A stretch of DNA of 64,000 nucleotides from Planctomycetota bacterium (GCA_965223845.1 CBDCXR010000004.1:7805200-7869199), one strand, 5' to 3'. Numbered from the stretch's first letter, positions 9,699 to 62,523 are shown. A program made the numbers and translations. Notes: generated from the sequence alone by a model not told the origin.

Positions 9699-9907
9699 GT
9701 CGAGAAGTCCTCGGGATTCGTTCATTCGAACCGACTCGCGGAGAGCGGGGATGGGCCCGCGCCGCGGAGCCGGGTGTCTCACCAGACGGTGAGCGAAGTG
9801 GGGAGACGCCGTGCGGCGGGAACGACAACGCGTCGCCGCAGCGGGGCCTCGACAGTAGCTGCGCCTCCGGGGTCGGTCAACTGTTCGTTGTCGAGCCGGC
9901 GGACCCC

Positions 9908-11830: not shown

Positions 11831-13419
11831 CCTCTCGCGCCTCCGCGAGCGTCGGTGTCCTCCGCGCCGGTGCCGGGAAGCGGATCCGGCAGCGTTTCGA
11901 TCTCGAGTCGGGGCAGCCAGGCCGCGACCGCCGCGAACCACGGGCCGGGAGAGTCGAGCGAGGACGAGAAGACGGGAATTCGGCGCGCATCGGGCCGCGG
12001 ATCGGCCAGGGTGGCGTCGAGGGGGCGCCAGCGATCGACGTGCACCTCCGTCCAGAGGTGTCCGTGGAATGCATCCTCGTGCGCGACGAGGCCGGCGACG
12101 ACGCGCGAGGGGATTCCGATCGCGCGACAGAGCGCCGCGAGGAGAAGTGCGTGCTCGGTGCAATCGCCGGCGCGGTTCACGAACGCTTCCTTCGCTGAGC
12201 CGAACGCGAGCGCGCTCGGATCGAGATCGAGATACCCCCGGACCCATTCCGCGAGTCGGAGCGCGCGTTTCCAATCCGAGGCCAGTTCCGCCGTCAGTGC
12301 GGTGGCGCGGCGAACGATCGCGGGATCGTTCGCTTCGAGATGCGCGGTCGGCGAGAGGTAGGCGATCGATTCCGCGTCCGACAGTCGGCGCGATTCGGCG
12401 GTGTTCGCGTCGGCGACCACGCGAATCCGTACCACGCGATCGCGGAGTTCGTGTTCCGGGACGGGGCGGAGCACCGTGACGCAGGCCGCATCGAAGAGCC
12501 CCTTCGCGTCCGGGAGCATCCCGCGGGGAAGGCGGACGCGGTATTCCGCGCGGTCGCGCGATCGCGGGACACCTCCGACGGGTTTCACGACGGCGATTTC
12601 GATCGGCGGCGGGGGCGATCGCGCGGCCTGGAGAGCGGCGCGCCGCGTCGACGTGTTCGAATCGAGCTGGCCGCCGAGGAGTGCGACCCTCGAGGCGATG
12701 GGGCGAAACCCGCGGTCGACACTTCGCTCGACGGTTACGCCCGCAGTGGTGACGCGAAGGCGGAATCCCTGCTCGTCGACCGCGATGATCTCGACCAGCT
12801 CGGTCACCGCGATTCCGCTCCCGGGACGGAGGACGGTGATCGAGACAGAATCGCCGGCGTTCCTGAGCGCATCCGTGAGGACGCGGCGCGCCCCGATGGG
12901 ACCGAGCGTCGCGGGAGGAAGGATCGATTCGCTCCGGCGATCTTGCGGGAGTGTGCGTTCAACCCGAATGCCGTCGCCGGCCCGGTAGCCGGAGATCTCC
13001 TCCGTGCGTCCATTCGCGACTCGCCGTGATGAGAACGCCGCGATCTCCCCGTTCGCGTCTTCGTCGGTCGTCGTCGCAGTGACCAGCGTGAGTGCTCGCC
13101 CGTCGCGGCGCCACGCGAGTCGCTGCGTAAACTCGCTGCGGTAGCCTCCACCCGCTCGCCGGTTTGCGCGGAAGCGGGAGTAGCCGATCGTTCGCGCCGA
13201 GGCTTCCGCAGAGGCGCGGTAGGAAAGAATCCGCCACTCGTCGATCTCGGCCGAACGTCGCCGGTTCGATGGCGAGGCGGGGTTCGGGTCGAGCTTCGCC
13301 TCCGGAGGGGACACCGATGACGCACAGCTTCCGCTCACCGTCACGGCGACCACAGCGCTCACCGTCCGCAAGCTTCGGCGAAGAGCGCCCTCGCGATTCA
13401 GCGGCGATGGCGCTTCCAT
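11827..13419 (-). CDS. Transglutaminase-like domain protein (putative lipoprotein)
   Basis: GDCTEHALL, HLWTEV, LDAT Cys-His-Asp triad; hydrophobic N-terminus ending SGSC; start uncertain (13464 or 13419). Confidence 0.8.
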   Translation of the reverse strand: MEAPSPLNREGALRRSLRTVSAVVAVTVSGSCASSVSPPEAKLDPNPASPSNRRRSAEIDEWRILSYRASAEASARTIGYSRFRANRRAGGGYRSEFTQRLAWRRDGRALTLVTATTTDEDANGEIAAFSSRRVANGRTEEISGYRAGDGIRVERTLPQDRRSESILPPATLGPIGARRVLTDALRNAGDSVSITVLRPGSGIAVTELVEIIAVDEQGFRLRVTTAGVTVERSVDRGFRPIASRVALLGGQLDSNTSTRRAALQAARSPPPPIEIAVVKPVGGVPRSRDRAEYRVRLPRGMLPDAKGLFDAACVTVLRPVPEHELRDRVVRIRVVADANTAESRRLSDAESIAYLSPTAHLEANDPAIVRRATALTAELASDWKRALRLAEWVRGYLDLDPSALAFGSAKEAFVNRAGDCTEHALLLAALCRAIGIPSRVVAGLVAHEDAFHGHLWTEVHVDRWRPLDATLADPRPDARRIPVFSSSLDSPGPWFAAVAAWLPRLEIETLPDPLPGTGAEDTDARGGARG

Positions 13420-13432
13420 TTCGGGCCCTCGT

Positions 13433-14353
13433 TCAGCACGGGTGTGGCTGGACGAGGCGGCCATCGATCGTCACGCTCCGGAGCCCCACGTGTACACAGA
13501 AGAGTCTCACCGCGAAGATGAGGTCGCTGCGGGTGAGCTCCTTCCGATCGATCGCGAGCTCTACGCAGCCGTTCTCGTCCACGTAGAACTCGAAGCCCGG
13601 CTCGCCGGCGACGACCTCCGGGGCGGTCCTTCGCAGGCGGTGCGCTCGATCGTTCTCGACGTGGTAGTAGAACGGATCGACTGCACTCAGTGCGCCTTCG
13701 CCTGACCATCGGCGCGCGAGGTGCGGAAGCTCACGGCGGAAGAATTCGCGGGTGAAGACCGACATCGGAACGAATGGAAGTTCGTCGGAACCGTCGGTGC
13801 GACGCGAGACGAGACCGACGTCGATCCACTGACGCAGCGGCGCGGGCGGAAGAACGCTCGGCGCGAAGTGACGCCGCGGATCGCTCACGGCGCGGAGGCG
13901 GAGGGGGGCGCTCAGTCGGAGCGCCTCGGCGAGATGGCGTCTCGGCGAGATGGCGCGACCCTCGGCGAGGCGGTCGGAGAGACTGCGGAGATACTCGCGG
14001 GCCTGCGGTGAGAGCTCGGAGTCCCCGGGCAGCACGGAGAGGAAGGTTGCCACGAGCCGCGCCGAAGCGGCGGTTTCGCCAGAGCCGGAGACTCGCAGCG
14101 ATACCGGGAGAGCGCGGTCGGCGAGCTCCGAGACTCCGCGGAGCCAGTGGATGAGCGACCCGCGCGAGCGGTGTGCGCTCAGATACTCGTCGATCGACCG
14201 CGCGACCGCGCGGAGACCCACGGCGCCGCGGTCGTCGGCGTCCCGCCGGTTCGTCCGGGGACTCTCCTCGCCCATGTGACGTCTCCTCTTCTTCGGTCCT
14301 CTTCCGCGGACTTCCTTCTCTGGGTCCTCGTCGTCGGCCCGTTTCGACGTCAC
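13433..14353 (-). CDS. Hypothetical protein
   Basis: Long ORF filling the gap, co-oriented with downstream genes; no recognised motif; start uncertain. Confidence 0.5.
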   Translation of the reverse strand: MTSKRADDEDPEKEVRGRGPKKRRRHMGEESPRTNRRDADDRGAVGLRAVARSIDEYLSAHRSRGSLIHWLRGVSELADRALPVSLRVSGSGETAASARLVATFLSVLPGDSELSPQAREYLRSLSDRLAEGRAISPRRHLAEALRLSAPLRLRAVSDPRRHFAPSVLPPAPLRQWIDVGLVSRRTDGSDELPFVPMSVFTREFFRRELPHLARRWSGEGALSAVDPFYYHVENDRAHRLRRTAPEVVAGEPGFEFYVDENGCVELAIDRKELTRSDLIFAVRLFCVHVGLRSVTIDGRLVQPHPC

Positions 14354-14666
14354 CGTCTCGCTCGGTCGCGGCGCGCGCAGCCGGCGGCTCGCGCGATCGC
14401 GCTACGTATGGCGGACCCCAACCCTGGTCGCGTCACATTGTAGGAGGGGGCGAGAGTCGACCCACGGAAAAAAAGTGGCCGCGACGAAGTGTCCCGCGCG
14501 CCTCAGAAGCGTGGATTCACACGCTAGCGCGTGCGAGCGCGAAATCGCTTGAGTTCGGTTCGGACGGGGAATATCGTCGGGCGGTTTCTCGCGCGCCGGC
14601 GCTGGACTCGCGGCCGCGACGGGCGGAGACGATACGCCGCCGCGGGGCCCGGAGAACGATCTTCAG

Positions 14667-15944
14667 ATGCTCGATCCCAAACGCATTCGTCAGGATCCCG
14701 ATGCGATCAAGGCGGGCGCACGAAAAAAACGCATCGACGCCGACGGGCTCGTCGATCAGTTTCTCGGGCTCGACGACGAACGGCGAGCGATCGTCCGCGA
14801 ACGCGACGAGCTGAAGGCGGAGCAGAATCGCGTCGGGAAGGAAATCGCGAAGCTCTCGGGTCCCGAGAAGGCAGAGCGCGGACGCGAAATGAAAGAGATC
14901 TCCGCTCGGCGGAAGACACTCGACTCGCGTCTCGCGGAGATCGAGACGGGCCTCCACGACGTTCTGCTTCAGATTCCGAATGTTCCCGACGCGGACGTTC
15001 CGGAGGGTGCTGACGAGGCGGAGAACGTCGAGCTGCGTACGGTCGGCGAGCCGCCGGCGTTCGACTTCGAACCAAAGGACCACCTCACGCTCGGAGAAGA
15101 GCTCGACCTCATCGACATGACGCGCGCCGCGAAGCTCTCGGGCTCGCGCATGTACATCCTCAAGAACGATGCGGCGCTCCTCGAGCTCGCGGTGCTTCAG
15201 TTCACGCTCGACTCGCTCGTCAAGAAGGGCTTCTCTCCGATGATCGTGCCGACTCTCGTTCGGCCGGAAGCGCTCATCGGTACGGCGTACTTTCCCGGGG
15301 GCGAGGACCAAGCGTACAAGTGCGCGCAGGACGATCTCTACCTGATCGGCACTTCGGAAGTGCCGGTCACGTCCTACCACTCGGGCGAGATCCTCGAAGA
15401 GGACGCTCTCCCACGGCTCTATGCCGGGTACTCGACGTGCTACCGCCGGGAAGCCGGAGCGGCCGGACGCGACACGAAGGGGCTCTATCGGATTCACCAG
15501 TTCAGCAAGGTCGAGCAGGTGGTCGTCTGCCGGAACGACGAGGAGGAGTCGCGCCGCTTCCACGAGTTCATCCTCACGAACGCCGAGGAAGTGCTCCAGG
15601 CGCTCGAGCTCCCGTACCGCGTCGTCAACGTCTGCGGCGGTGACCTCGGCGTGCCGCAGATTCAGAAGTACGACATCGAGACGTGGATGCCCTCGCGCGG
15701 CGGATACGGCGAAACCCACAGCGCCTCTCGGTTCTACGACTACCAGGCGCGCCGGCTGAGTCTCCGCTATCGCGGCGCCGACGGCAAACTCCGCTTCTGT
15801 CACACGCTCAACAACACCGCGATCGCGAGCCCGCGCGTCCTGATCGCCTTGCTCGAAAACCACCAGCTCGCGGACGGGACGGTGCGCATCCCAGAGGTGC
15901 TCCGTCCGTACTTCGGAGGGCGGGAGCGCATCGTTCCGAGGTGA
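14667..15944 (+). CDS. serS: Serine--tRNA ligase
   Basis: IPNVPDADVP, LIGTSEVP, CYRREAGAAGRDTKGLYRIHQFSKVEQ, HTLNNTAIASPR. Confidence 0.97.
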   Translation: MLDPKRIRQDPDAIKAGARKKRIDADGLVDQFLGLDDERRAIVRERDELKAEQNRVGKEIAKLSGPEKAERGREMKEISARRKTLDSRLAEIETGLHDVLLQIPNVPDADVPEGADEAENVELRTVGEPPAFDFEPKDHLTLGEELDLIDMTRAAKLSGSRMYILKNDAALLELAVLQFTLDSLVKKGFSPMIVPTLVRPEALIGTAYFPGGEDQAYKCAQDDLYLIGTSEVPVTSYHSGEILEEDALPRLYAGYSTCYRREAGAAGRDTKGLYRIHQFSKVEQVVVCRNDEEESRRFHEFILTNAEEVLQALELPYRVVNVCGGDLGVPQIQKYDIETWMPSRGGYGETHSASRFYDYQARRLSLRYRGADGKLRFCHTLNNTAIASPRVLIALLENHQLADGTVRIPEVLRPYFGGRERIVPR

Positions 15945-52773: not shown

Positions 52774-54342
52774 GTGAACGATCGGGGAGAGATGATCCGC
52801 CGTGCGGATCCGCGCGATCCGGAGATCGGCCGCCGAGAGATGTTGCGGCGCGTCGCCGGTGGAAGCCTCGCGTGGCCGCTGATCGGCTGCCGGACGTTCG
52901 ATCGAACCGGGGCGCGAGTCGATCGCGATCGACTCGTGCGGGAGAACCGTCGACCGGGAACTCGCGCGTGGATGCTCGAAACGACGGGCGTCGATACCGA
53001 GGCGCGTTACCGTTGTCCGCGTATCGAAGGCTACTGCTCAAAGACGAGCGTGCGGGCCGGGGACACGATTCAGCTTCACGTCAGCACGAATCCCGCATCG
53101 CCGTTTACGATCGATCTCTATCGAATGGGCTACTACGGCGGCGACGGCGCACGTCACGTGCTCTCGCTCGGACCGTTTCCCGGGAGCACTCAGGGCGATC
53201 CGCCGGTCGGGCGGCGGCGTATCCGGGAGTGCGGGTGGGAGCCTTGCGCGGCGCTTCGAATCCCCGACGATTGGCTGAGCGGTGTCTACATCGGAAAGTT
53301 GACGGCCGAGCGGAGCGGCTGGCAGAGCTACATAATCTTCATCGTGCGCGATGACCGTCCCGCCGACGTCATCTTTCAGTGCTCCGACACAACGTGGCAG
53401 GCCTACAACCGCTGGCCGGATCAGTTCTCTCTTTACGACGACGGGAAGACGGAGTGGTACTGGGGCCCGGGTGTGGACGTCAGCTTCGATCGTCCGTACG
53501 GGAAGTACTGTCAGATTCTCGATGCGCCGCTCTCGATCGGGTCGGGCGAGTGGTTCCTCTGGGAGTTCCCCGTGGCGTTTTGGCTCGAGGCGCGGGGATA
53601 CGACGTGACCTACATTTCGAATCTCGACACGCATGCAGACCCCACGGGACTCCTTCGCGCGAGGGGGTTCCTCTCGGTCGGCCACGACGAGTACTATTCG
53701 CTCGAGATGTACCACGGGATTCAGCACGCGATCGCGAGCGGAGTGAGTGTGGCGTTTCTCTCGGGAAATACGTGCTGCGGCCGGATCGATCCTCGTCCGA
53801 GCTCGTCCGGCGCGCCGAACCGGGTGTTTTCTCGGATCGACTTCTTCGGTCCGCGTGACGAAGCCGAGCTCGAGCGGTTTCCGACCATGGCTCTTCTTCC
53901 GCACCGAAGTCCGAATCCCGCCGATCTCATCGGCGCCCGGAGCGTCGCACCGATCACCGGCGGAGCCGACTGGACGTGCTCGCGGCCGGATCACTGGCTC
54001 TTCGCCGGAACGGGCATGCGGCAGGGTGAAGGGATCCCGGGACTCGTCGGATGGGAGTGGCACGGCGATCCGGCGGACCGGGACGGACTCGAGGTCGTCT
54101 CGACGGGGCCGACCTATTCCGCGCCCGGACAACCGAATGGCGGCGTGTATACGGCGACGGTGTATCCCGGTCCGAAAGGAAATGTCGTCTTCAATGCGGC
54201 GACGTGCTGGTGGGGCGACGCGCTCTCCGCTCCACCCGGATACGTTCGACCTTCGGTGTACACTTCGCCGCGCGGTCCGGACGCTCGCGCACAAAAGATC
54301 ACGGAGAATCTGCTCGCGCGCATGCTCGGCGGCGACGAGTGA
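52774..54342 (+). CDS. N,N-dimethylformamidase beta-subunit family protein (Tat-like signal)
   Basis: IEGYCSKTSVRAG, WLSGVY, TTWQAYNRW, VSFDRPY, SVGHDEY, FLSGN; GRREML signal. Confidence 0.8.
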   Translation: MNDRGEMIRRADPRDPEIGRREMLRRVAGGSLAWPLIGCRTFDRTGARVDRDRLVRENRRPGTRAWMLETTGVDTEARYRCPRIEGYCSKTSVRAGDTIQLHVSTNPASPFTIDLYRMGYYGGDGARHVLSLGPFPGSTQGDPPVGRRRIRECGWEPCAALRIPDDWLSGVYIGKLTAERSGWQSYIIFIVRDDRPADVIFQCSDTTWQAYNRWPDQFSLYDDGKTEWYWGPGVDVSFDRPYGKYCQILDAPLSIGSGEWFLWEFPVAFWLEARGYDVTYISNLDTHADPTGLLRARGFLSVGHDEYYSLEMYHGIQHAIASGVSVAFLSGNTCCGRIDPRPSSSGAPNRVFSRIDFFGPRDEAELERFPTMALLPHRSPNPADLIGARSVAPITGGADWTCSRPDHWLFAGTGMRQGEGIPGLVGWEWHGDPADRDGLEVVSTGPTYSAPGQPNGGVYTATVYPGPKGNVVFNAATCWWGDALSAPPGYVRPSVYTSPRGPDARAQKITENLLARMLGGDE

Positions 54343-54947: not shown

Positions 54948-56039
54948 TCAGCGACCGACGAGAGCGTCAGCGTTCGAGAGCGACCGCACGATCGTCCCCG
55001 CGAGAGTCTGCGCGGTTCGAGGCGCGAGCAAGATACCGTTGCGGAAGTGTCCGGTCGCGACGAAGGACCCGCGCGGACCGAACGGGCCGACCGTCGGAAG
55101 CGTGCTTTCGCCGCGCGGCCGGAGTCCGGCCCAGGCCTCGACGAGTTTCGTGGAGCGGAGTCCCGGGCAGAACTCGGCGGCTCGAGTTTGAAGATCGTCG
55201 ATCGCAGTGCGTTCGACGGTCTTGTCGAAACCCTTTTCTTCGACCGTCGTTCCGATGACGATCCGTCCGTCGCCGCGCGGGACGATGTAGGTGAGGTGCG
55301 AATAGATGACGTGGGTCGGAAGAAGAACGTCGCCCTGTTCCTGGGTCGACTCGAGTAGCAGCATTTGACCCTTCACCGGTCGAGCGGGCACCGAGGCGCC
55401 GTCGACTTCGACCTCGCTCGCCCACGCGCCGGCGCAGTTGACGACGACGTCGGCGGGGATGCCTTCTCCGTCGCTCGTTCGAACCCCGGTGACGCGACCG
55501 CCCCGAACGATCACTTCGCGCGCGGACACACCGGAGCGGATCTCGACTCGACGGCGACCCGAGGCGGCGACGAGCGCCTCAGCGAGTGCACGGTTGTCGA
55601 CGCTCCCTTCTTCGGAGTAGAAGAGCGCGGCCGTGACGGATGGGGCCAAGCTCGGCTCGACGCTCTCGAGCTCGTCGGGACGAAGGAGCCGGGCACCGGC
55701 CGGAACCTCGATTTGCTCGGCTGCCTCGATTGGCGAGATGATTCCGTTCAAACGAAGGCCGACATCGATCTCCGTTTCGTGCTCGAGCTCGCGCACATAC
55801 TCCGGATAGATCCGCAGCGCCTCTCGTCCGAGAGCCGCCAGTTCCGGCGCTTCGTGCGACTCGAGTCGCGGCGCCAGCATCCCTGCGGCCGCGCGCGTCG
55901 CCTCGCCGGCCGGCTGGGCCCGCTCGAGCACCGTGACGCGGAATTTCCCGCACAGAGGGGAGGCACCCGCGAGCTCGCGCGCGATCGCGAGGCCGACGAT
56001 GCCGCCGCCGACGATAATCACTCTCGGACCGGATTCCAT
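54948..56039 (-). CDS. thiO: Glycine oxidase ThiO
   Basis: GGGIVG, ATRAAAGMLAP, PVKGQM, YIVPR.DG, WAGLRP, ATGHFRNGILLAP. Confidence 0.88.
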   Translation of the reverse strand: MESGPRVIIVGGGIVGLAIARELAGASPLCGKFRVTVLERAQPAGEATRAAAGMLAPRLESHEAPELAALGREALRIYPEYVRELEHETEIDVGLRLNGIISPIEAAEQIEVPAGARLLRPDELESVEPSLAPSVTAALFYSEEGSVDNRALAEALVAASGRRRVEIRSGVSAREVIVRGGRVTGVRTSDGEGIPADVVVNCAGAWASEVEVDGASVPARPVKGQMLLLESTQEQGDVLLPTHVIYSHLTYIVPRGDGRIVIGTTVEEKGFDKTVERTAIDDLQTRAAEFCPGLRSTKLVEAWAGLRPRGESTLPTVGPFGPRGSFVATGHFRNGILLAPRTAQTLAGTIVRSLSNADALVGR

Positions 56040-56253
56040 CGCGCTTTCGGTTGGCTGGAGGAACTGCGGGCGAACTCCGAGCGAGAAGCTCGACGAGGAA
56101 GCCGGAACCGGCCGCGAAAGGTCGTCTCGGGCGGCCTCGTCGTCCGCGATGTTCGACGATTCGTCCCGAATCGTCCGCGGCTCGCATCGCGCGGCCGCCC
56201 GAGATGACTCGCCTTCCGTCTTCGAACCCGTTCCGGGGTAGACCCTCCGGGAT

Positions 56254-57798
56254 CTAACCCTTCGGGCAGGCTACCATCCGCCGCGCTCGCGCGAAGTGGA
56301 AATCCTTCAGCGTCTGCTCCTTGTTGTGGCAGACGAGGCAGTCTTTGCGCGTGATTCGACCGAACCGATGCTGCTTCGGATCATCGACGTGCTGCGGATT
56401 TGTCCCGTGGCACGATTCGCATTGTACGTTCGCGTACACTCCGGCGTTCGTCACGTCGAGGAACGCCTTCCCGTATCCGAGCGTATGGCACCCGATGCAG
56501 TCGAAACGGCGGTGGTTGTTCTCTCGCTCGAGTGACGCCATCGCGACCGCATGTTTCGTTCCTTTCCACCACTCGTACTGTTTCTCGTGGCAGCCCTGGC
56601 ACTTCGCGGCCGTCAAGTAGTCCGCGCGGTGGGGAAGCTCCGCTTCGCCCGCTTTCACGCTCGCGAGGTCGACGTTGTTCTTCCAGGCCTCGACGAGTTG
56701 GTCGATTTCCGGGTCGGTGAGGTGGTGGGGTTCGATCGACGTGATCTGGAAGTCGAACTCGTTTCGCTCGCGGAGCTCTGCGAGCTTCGCTCGGTCGGCC
56801 TCCGTCGCGTTCGGCGTCTTGACGAGATCTTCGAGGTCGGCGAGATCGGCCCAGTGAACAAGGGGTTTCCCGGAACGGGTCATCTCGATGTCGAGGCATC
56901 CGAGTCGCGCGCCTTGGCCGTCACCGCGGAGGAAGACGGTGTCTTTCCGCGTCGAGAGCCACTCGTCCTTCTTGATCCACGTGTGTGGATTCCCGTACTG
57001 GATGTAGGGATCGATCAGAATCTGCACTTCTGGGAATGCGTCCGCGAGCTCGCGGTTGACCTCCTCGCGAAGGTGCGAGAGAGCGACGATGAGGTCGACC
57101 TTCCCTTTGAGCTCGGCGAGTGACTTCGCGAGGGCATCCTTCGGGCTCTCGACGCGCGTGCCGGGGGCCACCTTGCCGAGGAAGACCTTGCTCATCGACT
57201 CGAGAGTGAGCCCGATCACGCCGACGCGCACGCCGCCGACCGTTTCGACGATGTGCGGCTCGAAGAGCAGCTCCCCGGTCTTCGCGTCGACGAGATTCGC
57301 CGACAGGAGCTCGAACTTCGCTTTCTTCTCGAGGTCGCGCAGCGCATCCAGTCCACCCGCGAGCTCAAACGGACCGACCGCCATCGCGCGGTAGCCCATG
57401 CGGTTGTACGCCTCGACGATCACCGCAGCCTTGCGGATCGCCTCAGCGCGCTCCGCGTCCTTAACGCGATCGCCGACCTTGTAGAGCGAGCTCCCGCCGT
57501 CGAGAAGAAGGATCTCCCGACCGGTTGCGCGAATCTGGCGAAGGAAGCTCGCTCGGCGCGTGAGACTCCCCTGACGCACTTCCTTGTGCTTACAACCGCA
57601 GACATCGATGTAGCCGGAGTTGTTCACATTGTAGATCAACGTGAACTTCTTCGCGGCCGCATCGGAAGGGGCCGCGGTCTCATCCGGAACGGCCGGCGCA
57701 CCGGTCGCGCTCGCGCCGTCACTCCACGCAAACACTCCGATCAGAGATCCCGCACCGAGGACGGCGCACAGCGCGCGAGCCGCGACACACTTGGACAT
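56254..57798 (-). CDS. Secreted UshA-like (CGC) domain + tetraheme cytochrome c; Cys paralogue
   Basis: Signal peptide; YNVNNSGYIDVCGC..GSLTRRA..LLDGGS; CQGCH, CIGCH, CESCH, CLVCH. Confidence 0.88.
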   Translation of the reverse strand: MSKCVAARALCAVLGAGSLIGVFAWSDGASATGAPAVPDETAAPSDAAAKKFTLIYNVNNSGYIDVCGCKHKEVRQGSLTRRASFLRQIRATGREILLLDGGSSLYKVGDRVKDAERAEAIRKAAVIVEAYNRMGYRAMAVGPFELAGGLDALRDLEKKAKFELLSANLVDAKTGELLFEPHIVETVGGVRVGVIGLTLESMSKVFLGKVAPGTRVESPKDALAKSLAELKGKVDLIVALSHLREEVNRELADAFPEVQILIDPYIQYGNPHTWIKKDEWLSTRKDTVFLRGDGQGARLGCLDIEMTRSGKPLVHWADLADLEDLVKTPNATEADRAKLAELRERNEFDFQITSIEPHHLTDPEIDQLVEAWKNNVDLASVKAGEAELPHRADYLTAAKCQGCHEKQYEWWKGTKHAVAMASLERENNHRRFDCIGCHTLGYGKAFLDVTNAGVYANVQCESCHGTNPQHVDDPKQHRFGRITRKDCLVCHNKEQTLKDFHFARARRMVACPKG

Positions 57799-57827
57799 GA
57801 GCTCATCTCTCTCCGCTGGACCGGCGG

Positions 57828-59276
57828 TCACTCCGGCTTCATCTTCGGACAGGAAACCTTGTCGATCGTCTCCGTGTAGCTGAACTGCTTTTGCGTGTAT
57901 TCGGGGTTGTGGCAGCCCCAGCACACTCCGTCGGAGACCTCGCCGAAGCGGTACGCGCGGGGGTTTGTGGCGTGCTTCGGCTCGATGCCGTGGCAGTTCT
58001 CGCACTGAACCTCTTTGAACGACTGCGCTTCAATGGGGCGCGTGTACGCGATTCCGTACCCGAGCGTGTGACAGCCGATGCAGTCGGTGCGCTCCGTCGC
58101 GCCGATCGGAACGAGCGTCTCGAAGTTGTTCGCATGGCGGGTCGACTTCCAGAACTGATCCTGCTCCTCGTGGCAGGCGGCGCAGGCCTCGGCTCCGGCG
58201 AGCTCCTCGATCGGGAACCGCTCACTGGGGTCGAAGTTCGCCGGAAGCTCGAACTTGCCGCCGCGCCTCACGAGTTTCATGAGGTCGGACATGGCGGGGT
58301 GGTCCATGATGTGCGGCTCGAGCGCGACGTTGTACCCCTCGTAGCTCGAGTACTTCTTCGTCGCGGGGTCGATCGTCATCTCGAACACGCCGACGCGTGC
58401 TCCCTGGCCGTCGATACGAAGTCGCGGTGTCCCGTGGATCTCACGGCAGTAGTCCTCGTCCCCGGAGACCCAAATCAGCTTCGATCCGAAGCGAGCGAGC
58501 GGGTCGACCATCGCATCGATGTCCGGGTTCTTCGCCAGGATCTCCGTATTCGTTTTCTCGAAGCAGTGGGAGAGTGCGATCACGATGTCGCTCTTCTCCT
58601 TGAGCTCCGCGACCACTCGCTCCGAAACGACACGGGGATCGAGGATCTCACCGTCGGGGATCACGCGCCGCGCGAAGTTCGGGTTGACGCGCTCCTGAAT
58701 GACCGCGTAGATCCCGAAGCGCACACCGCCGACCTCTTTGATGATGTACGGCTGGAAGTAGGGCTTCTTCGTCGCCTTGTCGACGAGGTTGGCGCAGAGT
58801 AGCGGAAACCGCGCATCGCGCGCGAGCCGCTGGAGACTGTCGAGCCCGAGCTGAAGGTCCTGCGGTCCGACGGCGACCGCGTCGTAGCCGAACACGTTGT
58901 ACGCGTTGAGGATCACCATCGCGTCGAGCCAAGCCCGACGTTCTTCGGTTCGGTCCGGCGCCTTGTTGGTCGCGATGCGGAAGAAAGTATCGCCGCCATC
59001 GACGAGCAGCACGGGGCGATCGAGTCCCCGGAGCTGCTGGAGATAGGTCATGCGTCTAGGCAAACTGCCTAGCTTGATCTTTTTCTTCGGTCACCCGCAG
59101 GTCTTTAGGTAGCCGACATTGTTCACCGTATACGCGAGAAAGATCTTCTCCGCGGGTTTCGGCGGCGTCGCGGGGACGGCAAACCCCCAGCGCGCAGCAG
59201 CGATCGTCGCCGCGAGGGCCACGATCCCGGCGAGGAGCTTCGGCGCCGGACGAGTGATCAAGAGTATGGTGGGCAT
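57828..59276 (-). CDS. Selenoprotein: secreted UshA-like (CGU) domain + tetraheme cytochrome c, 482 aa, Sec at TGA 59091-59093
   Basis: ORFs 59091..60104 and 57828..59063 are one frame: YTVNNVGYLKTCG-U-PKKKIKLGSLPRRMTYL aligns without gaps to paralogue CGC; CAACH, CIGCH, CENCH, CWGCH. Confidence 0.9.
59056..59072 (-). promoter_or_regulatory. Candidate bacterial SECIS element
   Basis: CTAGGCA-GTT-TGCCTAG perfect hairpin starting 18 nt after the UGA, loop begins GU; built from codons atypical for a high-GC genome (CTA, AGT, TTG, CCT, AGA). Confidence 0.75.
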
Positions 59277-59380
59277 AGGGGGATCGAATCCTCTGGGGCA
59301 GCCTTCGAAGGAAACGCATCGCGACGCCGCGCTTCGCTCGACTCTTCGGCTCGTTGCGGCCGAGCGATCGACGCTCCGAC

Positions 59381-60577
59381 TCAAACCTCGAGGCAAGACG
59401 CGGCGCAGCCCGAGTCGCCCGGCTCTTCTTCGGCCGGTGCACCCGGAGTCGCCGCACCGTGAGCGACCTGAAGCATGTACGCGACGTCCTCGACGTCCAG
59501 TTTGCCGTCGGAGTTCGGGTCCGTCGGGCACGGCGCGTCCTCGGTGGGACGAACGGTCGATTCTCCAGGATCGGCCTCGGAGCGCAACAGCCTGGACGCG
59601 AGGAAATATCCGACGCGGAGCTGTTGCTCGACCGCGGCGCTCGGCTTGATGCGAACCACGTAGACGTGAGCCCGACGAGTGCCGTGAAGCAAGATCGCGC
59701 GAACGCGCGGAGTCGAGCTGTACGTGTGGATGGCCTCGCAATCCGTGTCGGTCGCTGCGTCGAGCGGGAGCGACACCGCGAGCGGCGGCCCCAGCCGACA
59801 CGAAACCGGCTGAGTGCTCGGGCCATCGCTTCCCGGGCGCCGGCAGAGGAACATGTCGCTCGGGAGCTCGTCGGGACGCGTGGTGGAGAGGCTGGCGAGA
59901 GTGACGGCAGGCTCGGTACGAGCCGTGCTCGATCGGCTGGCGAGGACGGTGCCTTCGTCGACCATCGCGAGATCCGTCGGAATGCGTTCCTCGACAAGAC
60001 CCTTCGCCGAGCGCGGTGGCTCCGTTTCGAGCGCGCTCGAAACGGCGGCGCGTGCGGTCGCATCGTCCGGGGCGGACGCGACGATCGGAGACTCGTTCCA
60101 CCACTCGGGGCGCGAAGAGAACGTCCAGACACCCGCGGCGGCGATGACCGCCGCGGCTGCGGCCGCGATCCAGGCGGAACCGCCGCGACCGATGCGCGCC
60201 CCGACGCGCTCGAATTCCGTGCGCGCCGCGGGAGCGGATTCCGATTCGATCGCGGAGCGAACTTTACCGGCGAACCGCTCGGAGAGCGCCGGACTGTCGA
60301 GGAGTGACTCGACGAGCCAGAGCCGCTCGACGTCGAGCTGCTCCTTCCGATCGGCGCACGAACGACAAGACGCCAGGTGTTCGGCGATGCGCCGCGAACG
60401 GATCGGATCGATCTCGCCTTCGACGTAACGGTGAAGGAGCGGGACGACCGACGTACAGTTGGTTTCGTCCCGGCTCGCGGAACCCTCTATGAGTTCGTCG
60501 CCGCGCGTCGCCGCGGCGTGAACGTCATTCTGCGTCACCGGATCGTGACTGGATTCGTTCTCTCGTGAGCTGTTCAT
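59381..60577 (-). CDS. Zinc-binding anti-sigma factor (zf-HC2) with TM helix and extracytoplasmic domain
   Basis: YVEGEI..HLASCRSC, TM WIAAAAAAVIAAAGVW, C-terminal DPNSDGKLDVED loop; follows ECF sigma. Confidence 0.82.
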   Translation of the reverse strand: MNSSRENESSHDPVTQNDVHAAATRGDELIEGSASRDETNCTSVVPLLHRYVEGEIDPIRSRRIAEHLASCRSCADRKEQLDVERLWLVESLLDSPALSERFAGKVRSAIESESAPAARTEFERVGARIGRGGSAWIAAAAAAVIAAAGVWTFSSRPEWWNESPIVASAPDDATARAAVSSALETEPPRSAKGLVEERIPTDLAMVDEGTVLASRSSTARTEPAVTLASLSTTRPDELPSDMFLCRRPGSDGPSTQPVSCRLGPPLAVSLPLDAATDTDCEAIHTYSSTPRVRAILLHGTRRAHVYVVRIKPSAAVEQQLRVGYFLASRLLRSEADPGESTVRPTEDAPCPTDPNSDGKLDVEDVAYMLQVAHGAATPGAPAEEEPGDSGCAASCLEV

Positions 60578-60590
60578 CGCTTTCTACGCT

Positions 60591-61172
60591 CTACACTCGC
60601 TCTTCCCGCTCGACCGAACCTCGAAGCAGTTGCTTCCCCTTTCGGATCAGGTAGTCGATCCGATTGCTGTTGATTCCGAGCCTCTCCTCGATCTCTCGGT
60701 AGCTGAGCCCTTCGAGGTATTTCATGCGCAGAACATCGCGAACCTCCGGCGGCAGCTTTCGCATGAACTCGGACGCCGCGCTCAGGTCCGAGCTGCCGAG
60801 CGCCGGCGTCGCGCGTGCGCGACGCTCGCGCTGCCGTTCGTCCCGCCGAGCGCGTTCCCGGAGCTCGTCGAACTTGACCACCTTGATCCGCTCGCGCTGA
60901 AACCACTTGTGGCACCGGTTGTAGGCGATGCCGAACAACCAGCTCGAAAAGTTCTCCGGCGCCTGCAGCGAGTCGAGCGCCCGAAACGCCGCGAGGAAGA
61001 TGTCCTGCGTCAAGTCTTCGGCGTCGAAGTAGTTTTTGCTCTTGTAGAGCGCGACGTTGAAGACCGACTGCTGAAACTCCTCGACGAGAGCCTCGAAGGC
61101 GTCCAAGTCACCTCGCCGCGCTCGGTGGACGAGGGCGGTGATCTCCGATCGCTCGGCGCGCGGTTCACTCAT
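60591..61172 (-). CDS. ECF RNA polymerase sigma factor
   Basis: GDLDAFEALV, DAEDLTQDIFL, FSSWLFGIAYN, YLEGLSYREI. Confidence 0.92.
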   Translation of the reverse strand: MSEPRAERSEITALVHRARRGDLDAFEALVEEFQQSVFNVALYKSKNYFDAEDLTQDIFLAAFRALDSLQAPENFSSWLFGIAYNRCHKWFQRERIKVVKFDELRERARRDERQRERRARATPALGSSDLSAASEFMRKLPPEVRDVLRMKYLEGLSYREIEERLGINSNRIDYLIRKGKQLLRGSVEREERV

Positions 61173-61497
61173 GCGAAGTGGTCGTCACGTTCGGGTGGAT
61201 GCTCGTCGCCCCGAACATCCGGAGGGGCGACCCGTACATCGTAGCACCGGAGGCATGCCTTCCGTGTGCCGCGTCGGACTCGTCGCCGCCCGGCCGGTCT
61301 CGAGTGGGCTCAACGTCTTTCTTGATCAAGAGTTAGACGCTGCTCGAGCGTCCAAATACGGAGTACCCCAGGCGCGGGTGCGCTCGGAAAAAAAATCCGG
61401 GAACGGGGCCCCTCGCCGCGGAAAGAATCGTGCCGAACGGCCGGGCGACGGGGAGCGCCCCGCCGAACTCGGTGCGTGGAGGGATCCCGAAAACCGC

Positions 61498-62523
61498 TCA
61501 GAGAGCGGACCGGAGGGAGCGGACGGCGATCTCTGCGGCGCGCTCGGCTTCCCCGTCGTCGACGTCCTTGTGGAACACGAATCGGACCGCCGTGCCGAAC
61601 ATGTTGACGGCGAGAAGCCCGTCCGCCTTCATCTCGGCGACGAGCGGGGCGGGATCGCCGGGAGAGTAGAGGTAGACCATGTTCGTCTCCGGCGCGAGAA
61701 CCCGAACGCCCGGAAGCTCCGCCTCCGATAATGTCGCCGCGAACCGGCGCGCCCGGGCGTGGTCGTCCGCCAGGCGGGCGACGTTCGCTTCGAGAGCGTG
61801 GAGACCGGCCGCCGCGAGCACACCGGCTTGGCGCATTCCGCCGCCGAGCACCTTTCGAAGGCGCCGACACTCGACGATGAACTCGCTCGGTCCGGCGATC
61901 ACCGAGCCCGCTGGTGCGCCGAGCCCCTTAGAAAGGCAGAACATCACCGAATCGGCGCGCGAGGCGTACTCCGCCACGCGGACGCCCGACGCCACCGCGG
62001 CGTTGAAGATGCGAGCGCCGTCGAGATGGAAACGCAGATTTCTCTCCCGACAAAACTCGCGTACGGCGTCGAGATAGTCGACGGGAAGGATCCGGCCGCC
62101 GGCGACGTTGTTCGTCTGCTCGAGAATGAGAAGGCGCGTTCTCGGGCAGTGCACGTCGTCGGGCCGAACCGCCGACTCGAGCGCGTCGAGCGGGACTCGT
62201 CCGCCTTCGCTCGCGAGCGGTCGCATCTGAACGCCCCACAAACGCGCACCTCCGCCGGCTTCGAAGTTGAAGCTGTGTGCGCCCGCTTCGATGAGGATCT
62301 CATCGCCCGGCCGGCTCCACGCCCCGATCGCCGCTGCGTTCCCCATCGTCCCGGTGGGGACGAAGAGCGCACTTTCTTTTCCGAGTCTCTCGGCGGCGGC
62401 GGCTTCGAGCGCCTGGACGGTCGGATCATCGCCGAACACGTCGTCACCGAGGTCCGCCCGGCACATCGCCTCATACATCGCGGCGTCGGGCCGCGTGACG
62501 GTATCGCTACGAAGATCGATCAT
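61498..62523 (-). CDS. ltaE: Low-specificity L-threonine aldolase
   Basis: DLRSDTVTRP, GDDVFGDDPT, PTGTMGN, HLDGARIFNA, CLSKGLGAPAGS, GGGMRQAG. Confidence 0.93.
   Translation of the reverse strand: MIDLRSDTVTRPDAAMYEAMCRADLGDDVFGDDPTVQALEAAAAERLGKESALFVPTGTMGNAAAIGAWSRPGDEILIEAGAHSFNFEAGGGARLWGVQMRPLASEGGRVPLDALESAVRPDDVHCPRTRLLILEQTNNVAGGRILPVDYLDAVREFCRERNLRFHLDGARIFNAAVASGVRVAEYASRADSVMFCLSKGLGAPAGSVIAGPSEFIVECRRLRKVLGGGMRQAGVLAAAGLHALEANVARLADDHARARRFAATLSEAELPGVRVLAPETNMVYLYSPGDPAPLVAEMKADGLLAVNMFGTAVRFVFHKDVDDGEAERAAEIAVRSLRSAL

What the first reader, a model, noticed from the sequence alone, without database searches (positions are those of the whole stretch)
56254..61172. ECF sigma / anti-sigma / Sec-cytochrome / Cys-cytochrome operon: candidate undescribed periplasmic redox system
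Seen: four co-oriented genes with gaps of 13, 104 and 29 bp: ECF sigma, zf-HC2 anti-sigma, then tandem Sec and Cys paralogues of identical architecture, both ending in V[SA]CPK. Inference: a signal-inducible module where the paralogues act as a heterodimer (8 hemes, CxU plus CxC) or the Cys copy is a backup under selenium limitation. UGA read-through in the upstream gene could also tie downstream expression to Se supply.
Basis: partly seen in the sequence, partly recalled or inferred. Interest (0 to 1): 0.8.

Follow-up and report, generated by a model that had tools for sequence, protein, structure and literature searches.

The report
Sigma-controlled selenoprotein/cysteine haem enzyme pair
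A stress-type regulator pair sits in front of two related periplasmic four-haem proteins, one with selenocysteine and one with cysteine at the same site; the protein family is already catalogued but its function is untested, and the link to the regulator appears to be unpublished.

Summary
Four minus-strand genes, with gaps of 13, 104 and 29 bp, encode an ECF sigma factor, a zf-HC2 anti-sigma factor, and two paralogues that are 33% identical. Each paralogue joins a 5'-nucleotidase-like domain to a c554-like tetrahaem domain. The first has an in-frame UGA (Cys-Gly-Sec); the second has Cys-Gly-Cys.

The UGA is almost certainly selenocysteine. It is conserved in 20/20 class genes, a covarying hairpin follows it, and the genome has selA, selB, selD and tRNA-Sec.

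The cytochromes are not undescribed. They belong to NCBIfam NF041198, "UshA-like (seleno)protein", listed since 2008 with no tested function.

Three points seem to be new:
- In this Planctomycetota class the sigma and anti-sigma genes precede the pair in 20/20 fetched relatives. They were next to none of 67 homologues in other phyla.
- The Sec/Cys duplication predates the class radiation, which argues against a simple selenium-backup role.
- The C-terminal Cys aligns with His in other lineages, which suggests a His/Cys-ligated haem.

The anti-sigma factors end in a periplasmic dockerin-like module and a CxxxC tail.

Heterodimer formation, co-transcription and substrate remain untested. My best guess is a haem-fed selenol/thiol oxidoreductase induced by envelope stress.

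The parts
60591..61172 (-). ECF sigma factor gene (193 aa, P0005)
   Evidence: Sigma70_r2 53.4 bits and Sigma70_r4_2 48.3 bits. TIGR02937 sigma70-ECF 92.3 bits against a cut-off of 42.9.
59381..60577 (-). Single-pass anti-sigma factor gene (398 aa, P0004)
   Evidence: zf-HC2 35.3 bits at residues 41-75. The sequence shows an Ala-rich hydrophobic stretch at about residues 135-153. Orthologues lie between the sigma gene and the cytochrome genes in relatives.
60353..60457 (-). zf-HC2 anti-sigma domain (H-x3-C-x2-C)
   Evidence: Pfam PF13490 match to residues 41-75. The HL..C..C motif is conserved in the 19 aligned relatives.
59486..59521 (-). Dockerin-like calcium-loop motif (DPNSDGKLDVED) in the periplasmic part of the anti-sigma factor
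   Evidence: It aligns with the second of two such loops in f4/f5 orthologues. Dockerin_1 was detected in 5 of 9 orthologues scanned, 2 of them above the cut-off, but not in the window's own protein.
59384..59410 (-). Extreme C-terminal Cys-x3-Cys tail of the anti-sigma factor (GCAASCLEV)
   Evidence: A C-x3-5-C tail at the very C-terminus is seen in all 19 cleanly read class orthologues, often as ...C...CP-stop.
57828..59276 (-). Selenoprotein gene: UshA-like domain plus tetrahaem cytochrome c (482 aa, P0002)
   Evidence: NF041198 264.8 bits with C standing for U, against a cut-off of 275, E 1.3e-78. Four CxxCH motifs. The frame is open and conserved upstream of the TGA.
59091..59093 (-). In-frame UGA read as selenocysteine (U62, motif Cys-Gly-Sec)
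   Evidence: It aligns with Cys69 of the paralogue. A TGA stands at the same position in 20 of 20 class genes and in 27 of 67 homologues from other phyla. The genome has selA, selB, selD and tRNA-Sec.
59056..59072 (-). SECIS-like hairpin (7 bp stem, GUU loop) 18 nt after the UGA
   Evidence: MFE fold. On the 20-sequence alignment 93.6% of cells are paired, against 27-48% when the partner is slid. One pair covaries as CG:9 GC:9 AU:1 GU:1, at two third-codon positions.
56254..57798 (-). Cysteine paralogue: UshA-like domain plus tetrahaem cytochrome c (514 aa, P0003)
   Evidence: NF041198 299.5 bits, above the 275 cut-off. AF2 model pLDDT 87.6, pTM 0.84.
57592..57600 (-). Cys67-Gly68-Cys69 motif of the Cys paralogue
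   Evidence: At least 90% conserved in the 56-sequence alignment. PCGC is also present in out-of-class homologues.
56668..57657 (-). 5'-nucleotidase-like (calcineurin-fold) N-domain of the Cys paralogue, residues 48-377
   Evidence: VIA-align: Z 31.3 to 3ivd and 2z1a, 30.8 to UshA 1ush, 30.3 to SoxB 2wdc; rmsd 2.5-2.7 A over 274-277 residues. Foldseek E about 1e-20.
56257..56631 (-). c554-like tetrahaem domain of the Cys paralogue, residues 390-514
   Evidence: VIA-align: Z 9.9, rmsd 2.8 A, 123 residues aligned, 27% identity to cytochrome c554 1bvb. The profile matches 1bvb at E 3e-12 and OcwA 6i5b at E 1.5e-14.
56266..56268 (-). C-terminal Cys511 (VACPKG), proposed haem axial ligand
   Evidence: At least 90% conserved. 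It aligns with His in the f36, f8 and f100 homologues and with Cys in f9, f27 and f64. The ligand role is an inference.
57849..57851 (-). Equivalent C-terminal Cys476 of the Sec paralogue (VSCPK)
   Evidence: Invariant Cys-Pro in the Sec-clade alignment.
61400..61412 (-). Terminator-like hairpin with a T-run between the upstream aldolase gene and the sigma gene; a possible boundary of the unit
   Evidence: Consensus scan only. No such site falls in the three intergenic gaps of the module.

Best explanation
Shown: this is a conserved four-gene unit. It consists of an ECF sigma factor, its single-pass zf-HC2 anti-sigma factor, and two paralogous exported c-type cytochromes of the catalogued 'UshA-like (seleno)protein' family. 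Each cytochrome joins a 5'-nucleotidase-fold domain, in which the metal-ligand motif GNHE is replaced, to a c554-like tetrahaem domain. Near the N-terminus the first carries Cys-Gly-Sec and the second Cys-Gly-Cys.

Inferred mechanism: a periplasmic signal is sensed by the anti-sigma factor's outer part (a dockerin-like loop plus a C-terminal CxxxC tail). The sigma factor is released and transcribes the unit. The two proteins are exported and receive haem. Their tetrahaem domains exchange electrons with the periplasmic electron pool and feed a selenol/thiol (CxU or CxC) redox centre in the former phosphoesterase cleft. One haem is probably His/Cys-ligated through the conserved C-terminal Cys, and one (haem 2, as in c554) probably lacks a distal ligand. 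The pair would then act together as a haem-driven selenol/thiol oxidoreductase on a disulfide or a sulfur/selenium compound during envelope stress.
For: Anatomy.

Family: the NF041198 model covers both domains (positions 12-272 and 340-518).

Fold: 5'-nucleotidases and SoxB at Z 30-31; c554 at Z 9.9.

Dead phosphoesterase: where 5'-nucleotidases have GNHEF, the family profile has G-s-l-d-l. The window proteins read GPFEL and GPQDL.

Selenocysteine.

Linkage inside the class:
- Sigma upstream in 20 of 20 fetched class relatives.
- Anti-sigma found in 17 of 20 by phmmer, in 2 more by Pfam, and in the last one by its motif.
- Sec gene followed by Cys gene in 19 of 20.
- In a second sample, 8 of 9 informative Planctomycetota contigs had the sigma gene.

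No linkage outside the class: 0 of 67 loci from other phyla. Among 20 out-of-class loci of the same phylum there was only one weak hit, beside a true 5'-nucleotidase.

Tight spacing: the first ATG of the Cys gene lies -1 to +37 nt from the Sec gene's stop in 18 of 20 loci.

Haem ligands: only H416 and H470 are invariant His residues outside the CxxCH motifs, and C511 is at least 90% conserved. C511 aligns with His in other lineages. In c554-type modules haem 2 has no conserved distal ligand and is the active site (PMC6703420, passages read).

A thiol-partner theme: 4 of the 12 out-of-class loci annotated have a DUF1573 gene directly upstream of the single cytochrome gene. All 4 of those proteins carry one CxC motif.
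Against: - No RNA data exist, so co-transcription and sigma dependence are not shown.
- No shared ECF-type promoter motif was found. In the f5 relatives the sigma genes are preceded by a housekeeping-like TGnTATACT box.
- Conserved adjacency in this class also covers unrelated housekeeping genes: L-threonine aldolase upstream in 18 of 20, and ThiO downstream in 6 of 20. Synteny alone is therefore weaker evidence here than it looks.
- Electron transfer from haem to a selenylsulfide has no direct support. Coordinates of the model were not available, so no distance between the CGC motif, C511 and the haem sites could be measured.
- CxU could instead be a metal site.
- Some relatives (G023, L088, L089, L091) have only the Cys-type gene, so the pair is not obligatory.
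- No Rfam SECIS family matched.
Confidence: 0.55

Rival explanations
1. The two cytochromes are independent enzymes with different substrates. They share a regulator but do not interact physically or pass electrons or substrates to each other.
For: They are only 33% identical. The Cys clade is more conserved than the Sec clade, and each clade has its own invariant residues, for example DGGD and LCANL in the Sec clade against DGGS/N and LSANL in the Cys clade. Cys-type genes occur alone in G023, L088, L089 and L091. Single-copy Sec or Cys forms are the rule in other phyla.
Against: Among the loci examined, the Sec copy was never seen without the Cys copy: 19 of 19 in the first sample and 6 of 6 in the second. 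The intergenic distance is very short. The order has been kept since before the class radiated.
Confidence: 0.25
2. The Cys paralogue is a selenium-independent backup isoenzyme, used when selenium is scarce.
For: The two have the same architecture, with Cys exactly where Sec stands. Some relatives keep only the Cys type. Sec/Cys isoenzyme pairs are known in methanogens and sulfate reducers (recalled, not checked here).
Against: The duplication predates the split of the four families with copies here. The Cys copies form one clade (SH-aLRT 99) whose branching mirrors that of the Sec copies, and the two copies are only 33% identical. The Cys gene lies directly downstream of the Sec gene, so termination at the UGA under selenium shortage would be expected to lower its expression, not raise it (inference). 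G023, which lost the Sec copy, keeps selA and a Sec-containing selD.
Confidence: 0.12
3. Cys-Gly-Sec/Cys is a soft-metal binding site (for example Cu, Ni or Fe) that replaced the dimetal centre of the phosphoesterase. The proteins would then be haem-metal enzymes, not selenylsulfide oxidoreductases.
For: The hard-ligand motifs of the calcineurin fold are replaced, while a Cys/Sec pair appears in the loop after the first strand. The profile weakly matches the haem-copper sulfite reductase MccA (E 2.9e-5, one short stretch). Sec as a metal ligand is known in formate dehydrogenase and [NiFeSe] hydrogenase (recalled).
Against: Only two soft ligands are conserved. The MccA match covers a haem motif only. 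CxU and CxC motifs in most catalogued selenoproteins are redox motifs (PMC2398784, passage read).
Confidence: 0.12
4. The sigma/anti-sigma pair is only a neighbour by descent and controls other genes. The cytochromes are expressed on their own.
For: Housekeeping neighbours (threonine aldolase, ThiO) are conserved next to the module too, so adjacency persists in this class without any evident function. Gaps of about 100 nt or more before the Sec gene in the window, the four f3 relatives and L050 could hold a promoter. No ECF promoter motif was found.
Against: The four genes keep the same strand and order in all 19 relatives that have all four. The aldolase gene, by contrast, is inverted in the f3 family. 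In several f5 relatives the gap between the anti-sigma and Sec genes is only 7-22 nt. The sigma, anti-sigma and cytochrome scores fall together with phylogenetic distance. No terminator-like site lies in the gaps.
Confidence: 0.1
5. The TGA is a true stop, and the upstream gene is split or broken.
For: Public gene calls start after the TGA: P0125 is 407 aa, and 36 further orthologues are 302-418 aa. No Rfam SECIS model matched.
Against: The 61 codons upstream are open, conserved, and encode the signal peptide and first strand. The TGA aligns with Cys. It stands at the same place in 20 of 20 class genes and in 27 of 67 homologues from other phyla. A covarying hairpin follows it, and the full Sec machinery is present.
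Confidence: 0.02

Closest known systems
NCBIfam NF041198 'UshA-like (seleno)protein' (UshA_like_PCGU), equal to 'COG0737 UshA-like, CxU' of the 2008 GOS selenoproteome paper
   Same: Both window proteins match it over both domains. They share the PCG-U/C motif, the 5'-nucleotidase-like N-domain and the four-haem C-domain.
   Different: The catalogue entries give no function, context or regulation. Here the family occurs as an ancient tandem Sec plus Cys pair behind an ECF sigma/anti-sigma pair. That arrangement was seen only in one Planctomycetota class. The window's Sec copy scores 264.8 bits, just under the 275-bit cut-off.
Periplasmic 5'-nucleotidase UshA, and thiosulfohydrolase SoxB
   Same: The N-domain has the same fold: Z 30.8 to 1ush and 30.3 to 2wdc.
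   Different: The GNHE metal and catalysis motif is replaced. The C-terminal nucleotide-binding domain is replaced by a tetrahaem domain. Scores are far below the UshA and SoxB family cut-offs: 70 against 600, and 56 against 550.
Cytochrome c554 of Nitrosomonas europaea, and the c554-like module of OcwA
   Same: The C-domain aligns with c554 at Z 9.9, 27% identity, and by profile at E 3e-12; OcwA matches at E 1.5e-14. There are four CxxCH motifs but only three candidate distal ligands, which fits an open haem 2 (PMC6703420).
   Different: The domain is fused to a phosphoesterase-fold domain. The last candidate ligand is Cys rather than His in this class.
His/Cys-ligated haem enzymes of sulfur metabolism (TsdA, SoxAX, DsrJ); comparison recalled, not tested
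   Same: There may be a Cys axial haem ligand in a periplasmic multihaem protein, which would suggest sulfur chemistry.
   Different: No sequence or fold match to these families was obtained. The ligand role of C511 is inferred only from a His/Cys alternation in alignments.
ZAS-type (zf-HC2) anti-sigma factors of ECF sigma factors, such as RsrA, ChrR and RslA
   Same: An N-terminal H-x3-C-x2-C anti-sigma domain encoded directly after the sigma gene.
   Different: This one is membrane-anchored. Its periplasmic part carries a dockerin-like module (Dockerin_1 above the cut-off in 2 of 9 orthologues scanned) and a C-terminal CxxxC tail. Scores to the ChrR and RsrA models are far below their cut-offs.
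Sec/Cys isoenzyme pairs (for example the hydrogenases of Methanococcus and Desulfovibrio); recalled
   Same: Two homologues that differ by Sec or Cys at the same site.
   Different: Here both lie in one unit, are only 33% identical, and have been co-retained since before the class diversified.

Membership tests
NF041198 UshA-like (seleno)protein | Score above the curated cut-off (275 bits) | tested here: met
   P0003, the Cys copy, scores 299.5 bits. The genome scan gives 299.7 bits when the pieces in the frame are added.
NF041198 UshA-like (seleno)protein | Score above the curated cut-off, for the Sec copy | tested here: not met
   P0002, with C standing for U, scores 264.8 bits, below 275, at E 1.3e-78. 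It is clearly homologous and has the same two-domain coverage. I call it a family relative just below the equivalog line.
NF041198 UshA-like (seleno)protein | Cys-x-Sec/Cys motif near the N-terminus of the nucleotidase-like domain | tested here: met
   TCG-U in P0002 and VCGC in P0003. The motif reads PCG-U in the f4 and f5 orthologues.
NF041198 UshA-like (seleno)protein | 5'-nucleotidase-like fold followed by a multihaem domain | tested here: met
   AF2 model of P0003: Z 31 to 5'-nucleotidases and Z 9.9 to c554. The Sec copy was not modelled.
Bacterial selenoprotein gene | In-frame UGA aligned with Cys in homologues and conserved in orthologues | tested here: met
   20 of 20; 27 of 67 loci from other phyla.
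Bacterial selenoprotein gene | SECIS stem-loop just downstream of the UGA | tested here: met
   A 7-bp hairpin with G in the loop 26 nt after the UGA. 93.6% of cells are paired and there is one covarying pair. The 71-nt fold energy on its own is not unusual (z -0.23). No Rfam family matched.
Bacterial selenoprotein gene | Sec-decoding machinery in the genome | tested here: met
   selA 536 bits, selB 352.7, selD 307.8, tRNA-Sec 68.1 bits with anticodon TCA.
Bacterial selenoprotein gene | Selenium in the protein product | not testable with these tools
   This needs 75Se labelling or mass spectrometry.
ECF sigma factor (group 4 sigma-70) | Regions 2 and 4 only, score over the family cut-off | tested here: met
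   TIGR02937 scores 92.3 bits against 42.9. Sigma70_r2 and Sigma70_r4_2 are present and the protein is 193 aa. No specific ECF subgroup model reached its cut-off.
ECF sigma factor (group 4 sigma-70) | Co-transcription with the anti-sigma gene and an autoregulated ECF promoter | tested here: inconclusive
   The gap is 13 bp. No shared -35/-10 motif was found, and no RNA runs were available.
zf-HC2 (ZAS-type) anti-sigma factor | N-terminal H-x3-C-x2-C domain | tested here: met
   PF13490 scores 35.3 bits against 22.2. The motif is conserved in relatives.
Dockerin type I domain (in the anti-sigma periplasmic part) | Pfam PF00404 above its cut-off (22.9 bits) | tested here: not met
   The window's P0004 had no hit at E up to 0.1. 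Of the 9 orthologues scanned, L051 (33.6 bits) and L061 (23.3 bits) pass, 3 score 15.5-20.4 bits, and 4 have no hit. The window keeps only one calcium-loop-like repeat.
UshA / 5'-nucleotidase (active enzyme) | Dimetal ligand and catalytic motifs (GNHE and others) and the C-terminal nucleotide-binding domain | tested here: not met
   GNHEF is replaced by GPFEL and GPQDL. There was no 5_nucleotid_C hit. The score is 70 bits against a cut-off of 600.
His/Cys-ligated haem proteins (TsdA or SoxAX type) | Cys thiolate as an axial haem ligand | not testable with these tools
   The only support is an alignment-based alternation between Cys and His at the C-terminal position. This needs spectroscopy or a structure with haem.

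The most novel reading that the evidence does not exclude
The module is a self-contained periplasmic selenium-based redox circuit. Haem-fed Cys-Gly-Sec and Cys-Gly-Cys enzymes, each with a His/Cys-ligated haem, act as a relay on thiol or chalcogen substrates. They also set the redox state of the anti-sigma factor's own periplasmic Cys tail, so the enzymes would feed back on the switch that induces them. That would give the UshA-like selenoprotein family its first function and would describe a new kind of input for ECF signalling.
Probability: 0.12. Interest if true: 0.8.

Novelty: new variant of a known kind. Interest (0 to 1): 0.5.

Why it matters
The UshA-like selenoproteins form a large environmental family: 1,979 clusters at 50% identity score E<=1e-30 against the profile. 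The family has been known since 2008, but no function, partner or regulator has been described.

A clade in which the gene is duplicated into a fixed Sec/Cys tandem and placed behind a dedicated sigma/anti-sigma switch gives three experimental handles:
- An inducing condition to look for.
- A natural Sec-versus-Cys comparison within one operon.
- A candidate His-to-Cys haem-ligand switch.

It also shows that public gene calls cut these genes off at the UGA, so the family is under-annotated in Planctomycetota genomes assembled from metagenomes.

Tried and rejected
- Rfam at E<=10 over 56000-61500 gave four chance-level hits and no SECIS family.
- The search for sequencing runs found four holders from one study. 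No RNA holder was listed, so no reads were laid.
- The sigma-70 promoter scan found 0 sites. The terminator-like sites lie inside genes, apart from one upstream of the sigma gene.
- Looking for a shared ECF-type promoter upstream of the sigma genes and of the Sec genes by eye and by k-mer counts gave nothing convincing. The f5 relatives show a TGnTATACT box.
- The regex estimate of the gap between the anti-sigma and Sec genes picked spurious peptides in 7 of 20 loci. Only the other 13 were used.
There is therefore no complex result of any kind.
- hmmalign of 150 cluster representatives left the C-terminal ligand column as a gap in 69 of them. It could not quantify His against Cys.
- Literature searches: 'selenocysteine + multiheme + nucleotidase' gave 0 papers. 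'ECF, anti-sigma, Planctomycetes, cytochrome c, selenocysteine' with at least 4 of 5 terms gave 4 papers, all unrelated genome or transcriptome papers judging by the listing.
- Look-ups of earlier scan notes by place and by sequence found nothing.
- Cohesin and dockerin genes are plentiful in the genome (6 and 125 matches), but none lies in this locus.
- Supplements of the 2008 and 2026 selenoproteome papers were not opened. They may list members or contexts of the family.

Full report
**Observation**

The minus strand of 56254-61172 carries four genes:
- An ECF sigma factor (60591..61172, 193 aa).
- A zf-HC2 anti-sigma factor (59381..60577, 398 aa).
- A gene of 482 codons (57828..59276) that is open only if TGA 59091-59093 is read through.
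- A gene of 514 codons (56254..57798).

Pfam and NCBIfam confirm the sigma factor (Sigma70_r2, Sigma70_r4_2, TIGR02937 92.3 bits) and the anti-sigma domain (zf-HC2 35.3 bits). Both downstream proteins have an N-terminal hydrophobic signal segment and four CxxCH motifs, and they end in VSCPK... and VACPKG. They are 33% identical (E 8e-95), and the read-through codon aligns with Cys69 of the second protein: Cys-Gly-Sec against Cys-Gly-Cys.

**Is the UGA selenocysteine?**

- The genome (7.93 Mb, 4 contigs) has selA (536 bits), selB (352.7), selD (307.8) and a tRNA-Sec (68.1 bits; ARAGORN gives anticodon TCA).
- In the window and 19 relatives the TGA stands at the same place, in [TP]CG-U-PK[KR]K[IV]KLGSL. 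The upstream frame is open and conserved.
- Eighteen nt downstream lies a 7-bp hairpin with a GUU loop. On the 20-sequence alignment 93.6% of cells pair, against 27-48% when the 3' partner is slid. One pair covaries as CG:9, GC:9, AU:1, GU:1, and both of its sides are third codon positions.
- The fold energy of the 71-nt stretch alone is not unusual (z -0.23), and no Rfam SECIS model matched.
- All 37 close database orthologues of this gene are called as 302-418 aa proteins that begin after the UGA. None is full length with Cys.
- In other phyla, 27 of 67 homologous loci also have TGA directly after PCG. Most are followed by a hairpin (median z -1.3, and 11 of 27 below -1.5).

I put Sec at about 0.97.

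**What the proteins are**

They are not an undescribed family. NCBIfam NF041198, 'UshA-like (seleno)protein' (UshA_like_PCGU), matches both proteins over the N-domain (model positions 12-272) and the haem domain (340-518). The Cys copy scores 299.5 bits against a cut-off of 275. The Sec copy scores 264.8 bits with C for U.

The family appears as 'COG0737, UshA-like, CxU' with 76 Sec and 92 Cys sequences in the 2008 GOS selenoproteome paper (PMC2398784, passages read). It also appears in tables of a 2022 and a 2026 review (PMC9312934, PMC13188914, passages read). In what I read, none of them gives a function.

An AF2 model of the Cys copy (pLDDT 87.6, pTM 0.84) was compared with solved structures:
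- Residues 48-377 align with 5'-nucleotidases (Z 31.3 to 3ivd and 2z1a, 30.8 to UshA) and with SoxB (Z 30.3), at rmsd 2.5-2.7 A over 274-277 residues.
- Residues 390-514 align with cytochrome c554 (Z 9.9, rmsd 2.8 A, 123 residues, 27% identity).
- A profile search of PDB sequences agrees: 5'-nucleotidases at 1e-20, OcwA at 1.5e-14, c554 at 3e-12, SoxB at 1e-5.

The GNHE catalytic and metal motif is replaced (GPFEL and GPQDL), so this is a disabled phosphoesterase scaffold.

A whole-library profile search finds 1,979 clusters at 50% identity with E<=1e-30. The family is large.

**Linkage to the sigma and anti-sigma genes**

A scan of 401 genomes of the phylum found matches at E<=1e-20 in 241. 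In the matches listed, TGA-interrupted copies occurred only in genomes of the window's class.

Of 22 sampled genomes of the class other than the window's, 21 had the family; G128 did not. I fetched 20 and left out G183, whose hit sits at a contig start. The results:
- All 20 have a P0005-like sigma gene directly upstream on the same strand (90-252 bits).
- 17 of 20 have a P0004-like anti-sigma gene by phmmer. Two more were confirmed by zf-HC2. The last one (L052) shows the motif, but its N-terminal and C-terminal parts lie in different frames.
- 19 of 20 have the Sec gene followed by the Cys gene. G023 has only a Cys-type gene.

A second sample from named MAG records held 13 Planctomycetota contigs. 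Two are the same contigs as before and two are too short. Of the other 9, 8 have the sigma gene (L091 does not), 6 of those also have the Sec gene, and 2 have only the Cys type.

Outside the class:
- Of 20 loci from other families of the phylum, only one had a sigma hit within about 8 kb, and it was weak (45.5 bits). That locus encodes an ordinary 5'-nucleotidase.
- 0 of 67 loci from other phyla had such a hit.

So the coupling is real and is specific to this clade.

There is a caveat. The L-threonine aldolase gene upstream is also adjacent in 18 of 20 relatives, and the ThiO gene downstream in 6 of 20. Adjacency in this class can therefore persist without any evident function. The four genes, however, keep strand and order even where the aldolase gene is inverted (family f3).

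**History of the pair**

A tree of 47 rows was built: 20 Sec copies, 21 Cys copies and 6 of the 20 out-of-class homologues. The other 14 out-of-class loci were left out, among them two plain nucleotidases. The method was quick IQ-TREE with LG+G4.
- All 41 class sequences fall in one clade (SH-aLRT 98).
- The Cys copies form one clade (99).
- The Sec copies fall in two groups. Their union with the Cys clade is not strongly resolved (89).
- Both sub-trees mirror the family structure.

The duplication therefore predates the radiation of the class. Together with 33% identity, the position of the Cys gene downstream of the Sec gene (first ATG -1 to +37 nt after the Sec stop in 18 of 20 loci), and the fact that G023 lost the Sec copy while keeping selA and a Sec-containing selD, this argues against a simple selenium-backup role.

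**Further features bearing on mechanism**

(i) Haem ligands. Outside the CxxCH motifs only H416 and H470 are invariant His residues, and C511 is at least 90% conserved. That gives three candidate distal ligands for four haems. It fits c554-type modules, in which haem 2 lacks a conserved distal ligand and is the active site (PMC6703420, passages read).

(ii) The C-terminal Cys. The Cys of 'V[SA]CP' aligns with His in homologues of families f36, f8 and f100, and with the C-terminal '...KIKH' of many homologues in other phyla. It aligns with Cys in f9, f27 and f64. This looks like a His/Cys switch at a haem-ligand position, which is an inference. The comparison with TsdA, SoxAX and DsrJ is recalled, not tested.

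(iii) CxC motifs elsewhere. The PCGC motif is also present in the single-copy homologues of other Planctomycetota families. In 4 of the 12 out-of-class loci that I annotated, a DUF1573 Ig-like gene lies directly upstream, and all 4 of those proteins carry one CxC motif. This hints that the family works with a second periplasmic CxC partner. In this class the paralogue may fill that role.

(iv) The anti-sigma factors. They share a periplasmic dockerin-like module: two calcium-loop repeats in f4/f5 and one in f1/f3. Dockerin_1 was detected in 5 of the 9 scanned, 2 of them above the cut-off, but not in the window's own protein. They also share a Cys before the last loop and a C-x3-5-C tail at the very C-terminus.

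**Most likely working**

Shown: the anatomy, the Sec codon, the family, the folds and the clade-specific conserved arrangement.

Inferred:
- The sigma factor, once released from the anti-sigma factor on a periplasmic signal, drives the unit.
- The tetrahaem domains link the periplasmic electron pool to the CxU/CxC centre in the former phosphoesterase cleft.
- The two paralogues act together on a disulfide or a sulfur/selenium compound.

I give about 0.55 to this reading as a whole. The descriptive part stands at about 0.9, and the haem-to-selenol/thiol oxidoreductase mechanism at about 0.4. The rivals are independent enzymes, a backup isoenzyme, a soft-metal site, a regulator that is only a neighbour, and a true stop codon. 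They are listed with their odds.

**What could not be done**

- No RNA runs hold the locus.
- A homodimer job for the Cys copy never found a queue slot.
- Model coordinates are not exposed, so no distances between the CGC motif, C511 and the haem sites could be measured.

**Earlier notes of this scan**

Notes on other genomes describe the same Sec/Cys tandem, the dockerin-bearing anti-sigma factor and the DUF1573/cytochrome pair. They agree with what I found independently. They are not independent evidence.

**Verdict**

The protein family is already known. The ECF-controlled, anciently duplicated Sec/Cys tandem with a probable His/Cys haem is a new variant of a known kind. It is of moderate interest, mainly as a route to a function for a large orphan selenoprotein family.

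Noticed in passing
window 57828-59063, and database proteins P0125-P0161: Public gene calls for the Sec gene start after the UGA: 407 aa for the window's own gene, and 302-418 aa for 36 orthologues. Many of the top 150 cluster representatives also begin at profile position 56-78. The family is truncated in annotation as a rule.
   Followed up: partly
window 61498-62523 (-) and 54948-56039 (-): Low-specificity L-threonine aldolase (NF007825, 332.9 bits) lies upstream and glycine oxidase ThiO (TIGR02352, 263 bits) downstream. The aldolase gene is adjacent to the module in 18 of 20 class relatives and is inverted in family f3. ThiO is adjacent in all 6 f1/f3 relatives. Both are probably inherited synteny.
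   Followed up: partly
P0006 (database protein, 662 aa): One ORF joins the region-4 part of an ECF sigma factor to a Cys-type cytochrome that is 69% identical to P0003, with no anti-sigma or Sec gene between them. It may be a gene-call fusion or a real variant arrangement.
   Followed up: no
L052 (G377) about 8834-9800: The zf-HC2 N-terminus and the LPCQISCP-stop tail of the anti-sigma gene lie in different frames. This is a frameshift or an assembly error.
   Followed up: no
L061 (G023), L088, L089, L091: These relatives have only the Cys-type gene. L061, L088 and L089 keep the sigma gene; L091 has neither a sigma hit nor a Sec gene within 6 kb. G023 still has selA and a Sec-containing selD.
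   Followed up: partly
L073 (G326, family f36) 10744-15533: Close upstream of the single-copy homologue, beyond its DUF1573 gene, lie a protein with a hydrazine-synthase alpha middle domain, a CCP/MauG-like dihaem cytochrome and a beta-propeller protein.
   Followed up: no
L073, L075, L080, L081: A DUF1573 Ig-like gene lies directly upstream of the single cytochrome gene. Each of these proteins has one CxC motif (SCGCT, TCKCT, SCRCT, TCKCT).
   Followed up: partly
L055-L064 upstream of the sigma genes; window about 61210-61220: The f5 sigma genes are preceded by a TGnTATACT box that resembles an extended -10 element. The window has TGCTACGAT at a comparable place. This suggests a housekeeping-type promoter for the sigma gene.
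   Followed up: no
genome G000, outside the window: The genome has 125 Dockerin_1 matches and 6 Cohesin matches (4 over the cut-off). This points to a large dockerin/cohesin repertoire, but none of it lies in this locus.
   Followed up: no
window 52774-54342 (+): A 522-aa protein with an N,N-dimethylformamidase beta-subunit-like C-terminal domain (DMFA2_C, 263.8 bits).
   Followed up: no
L065, L069, L070 (families f27 and f9): The out-of-class homologues here are about 800 aa long and have a C-terminal TPR extension after the tetrahaem domain.
   Followed up: no
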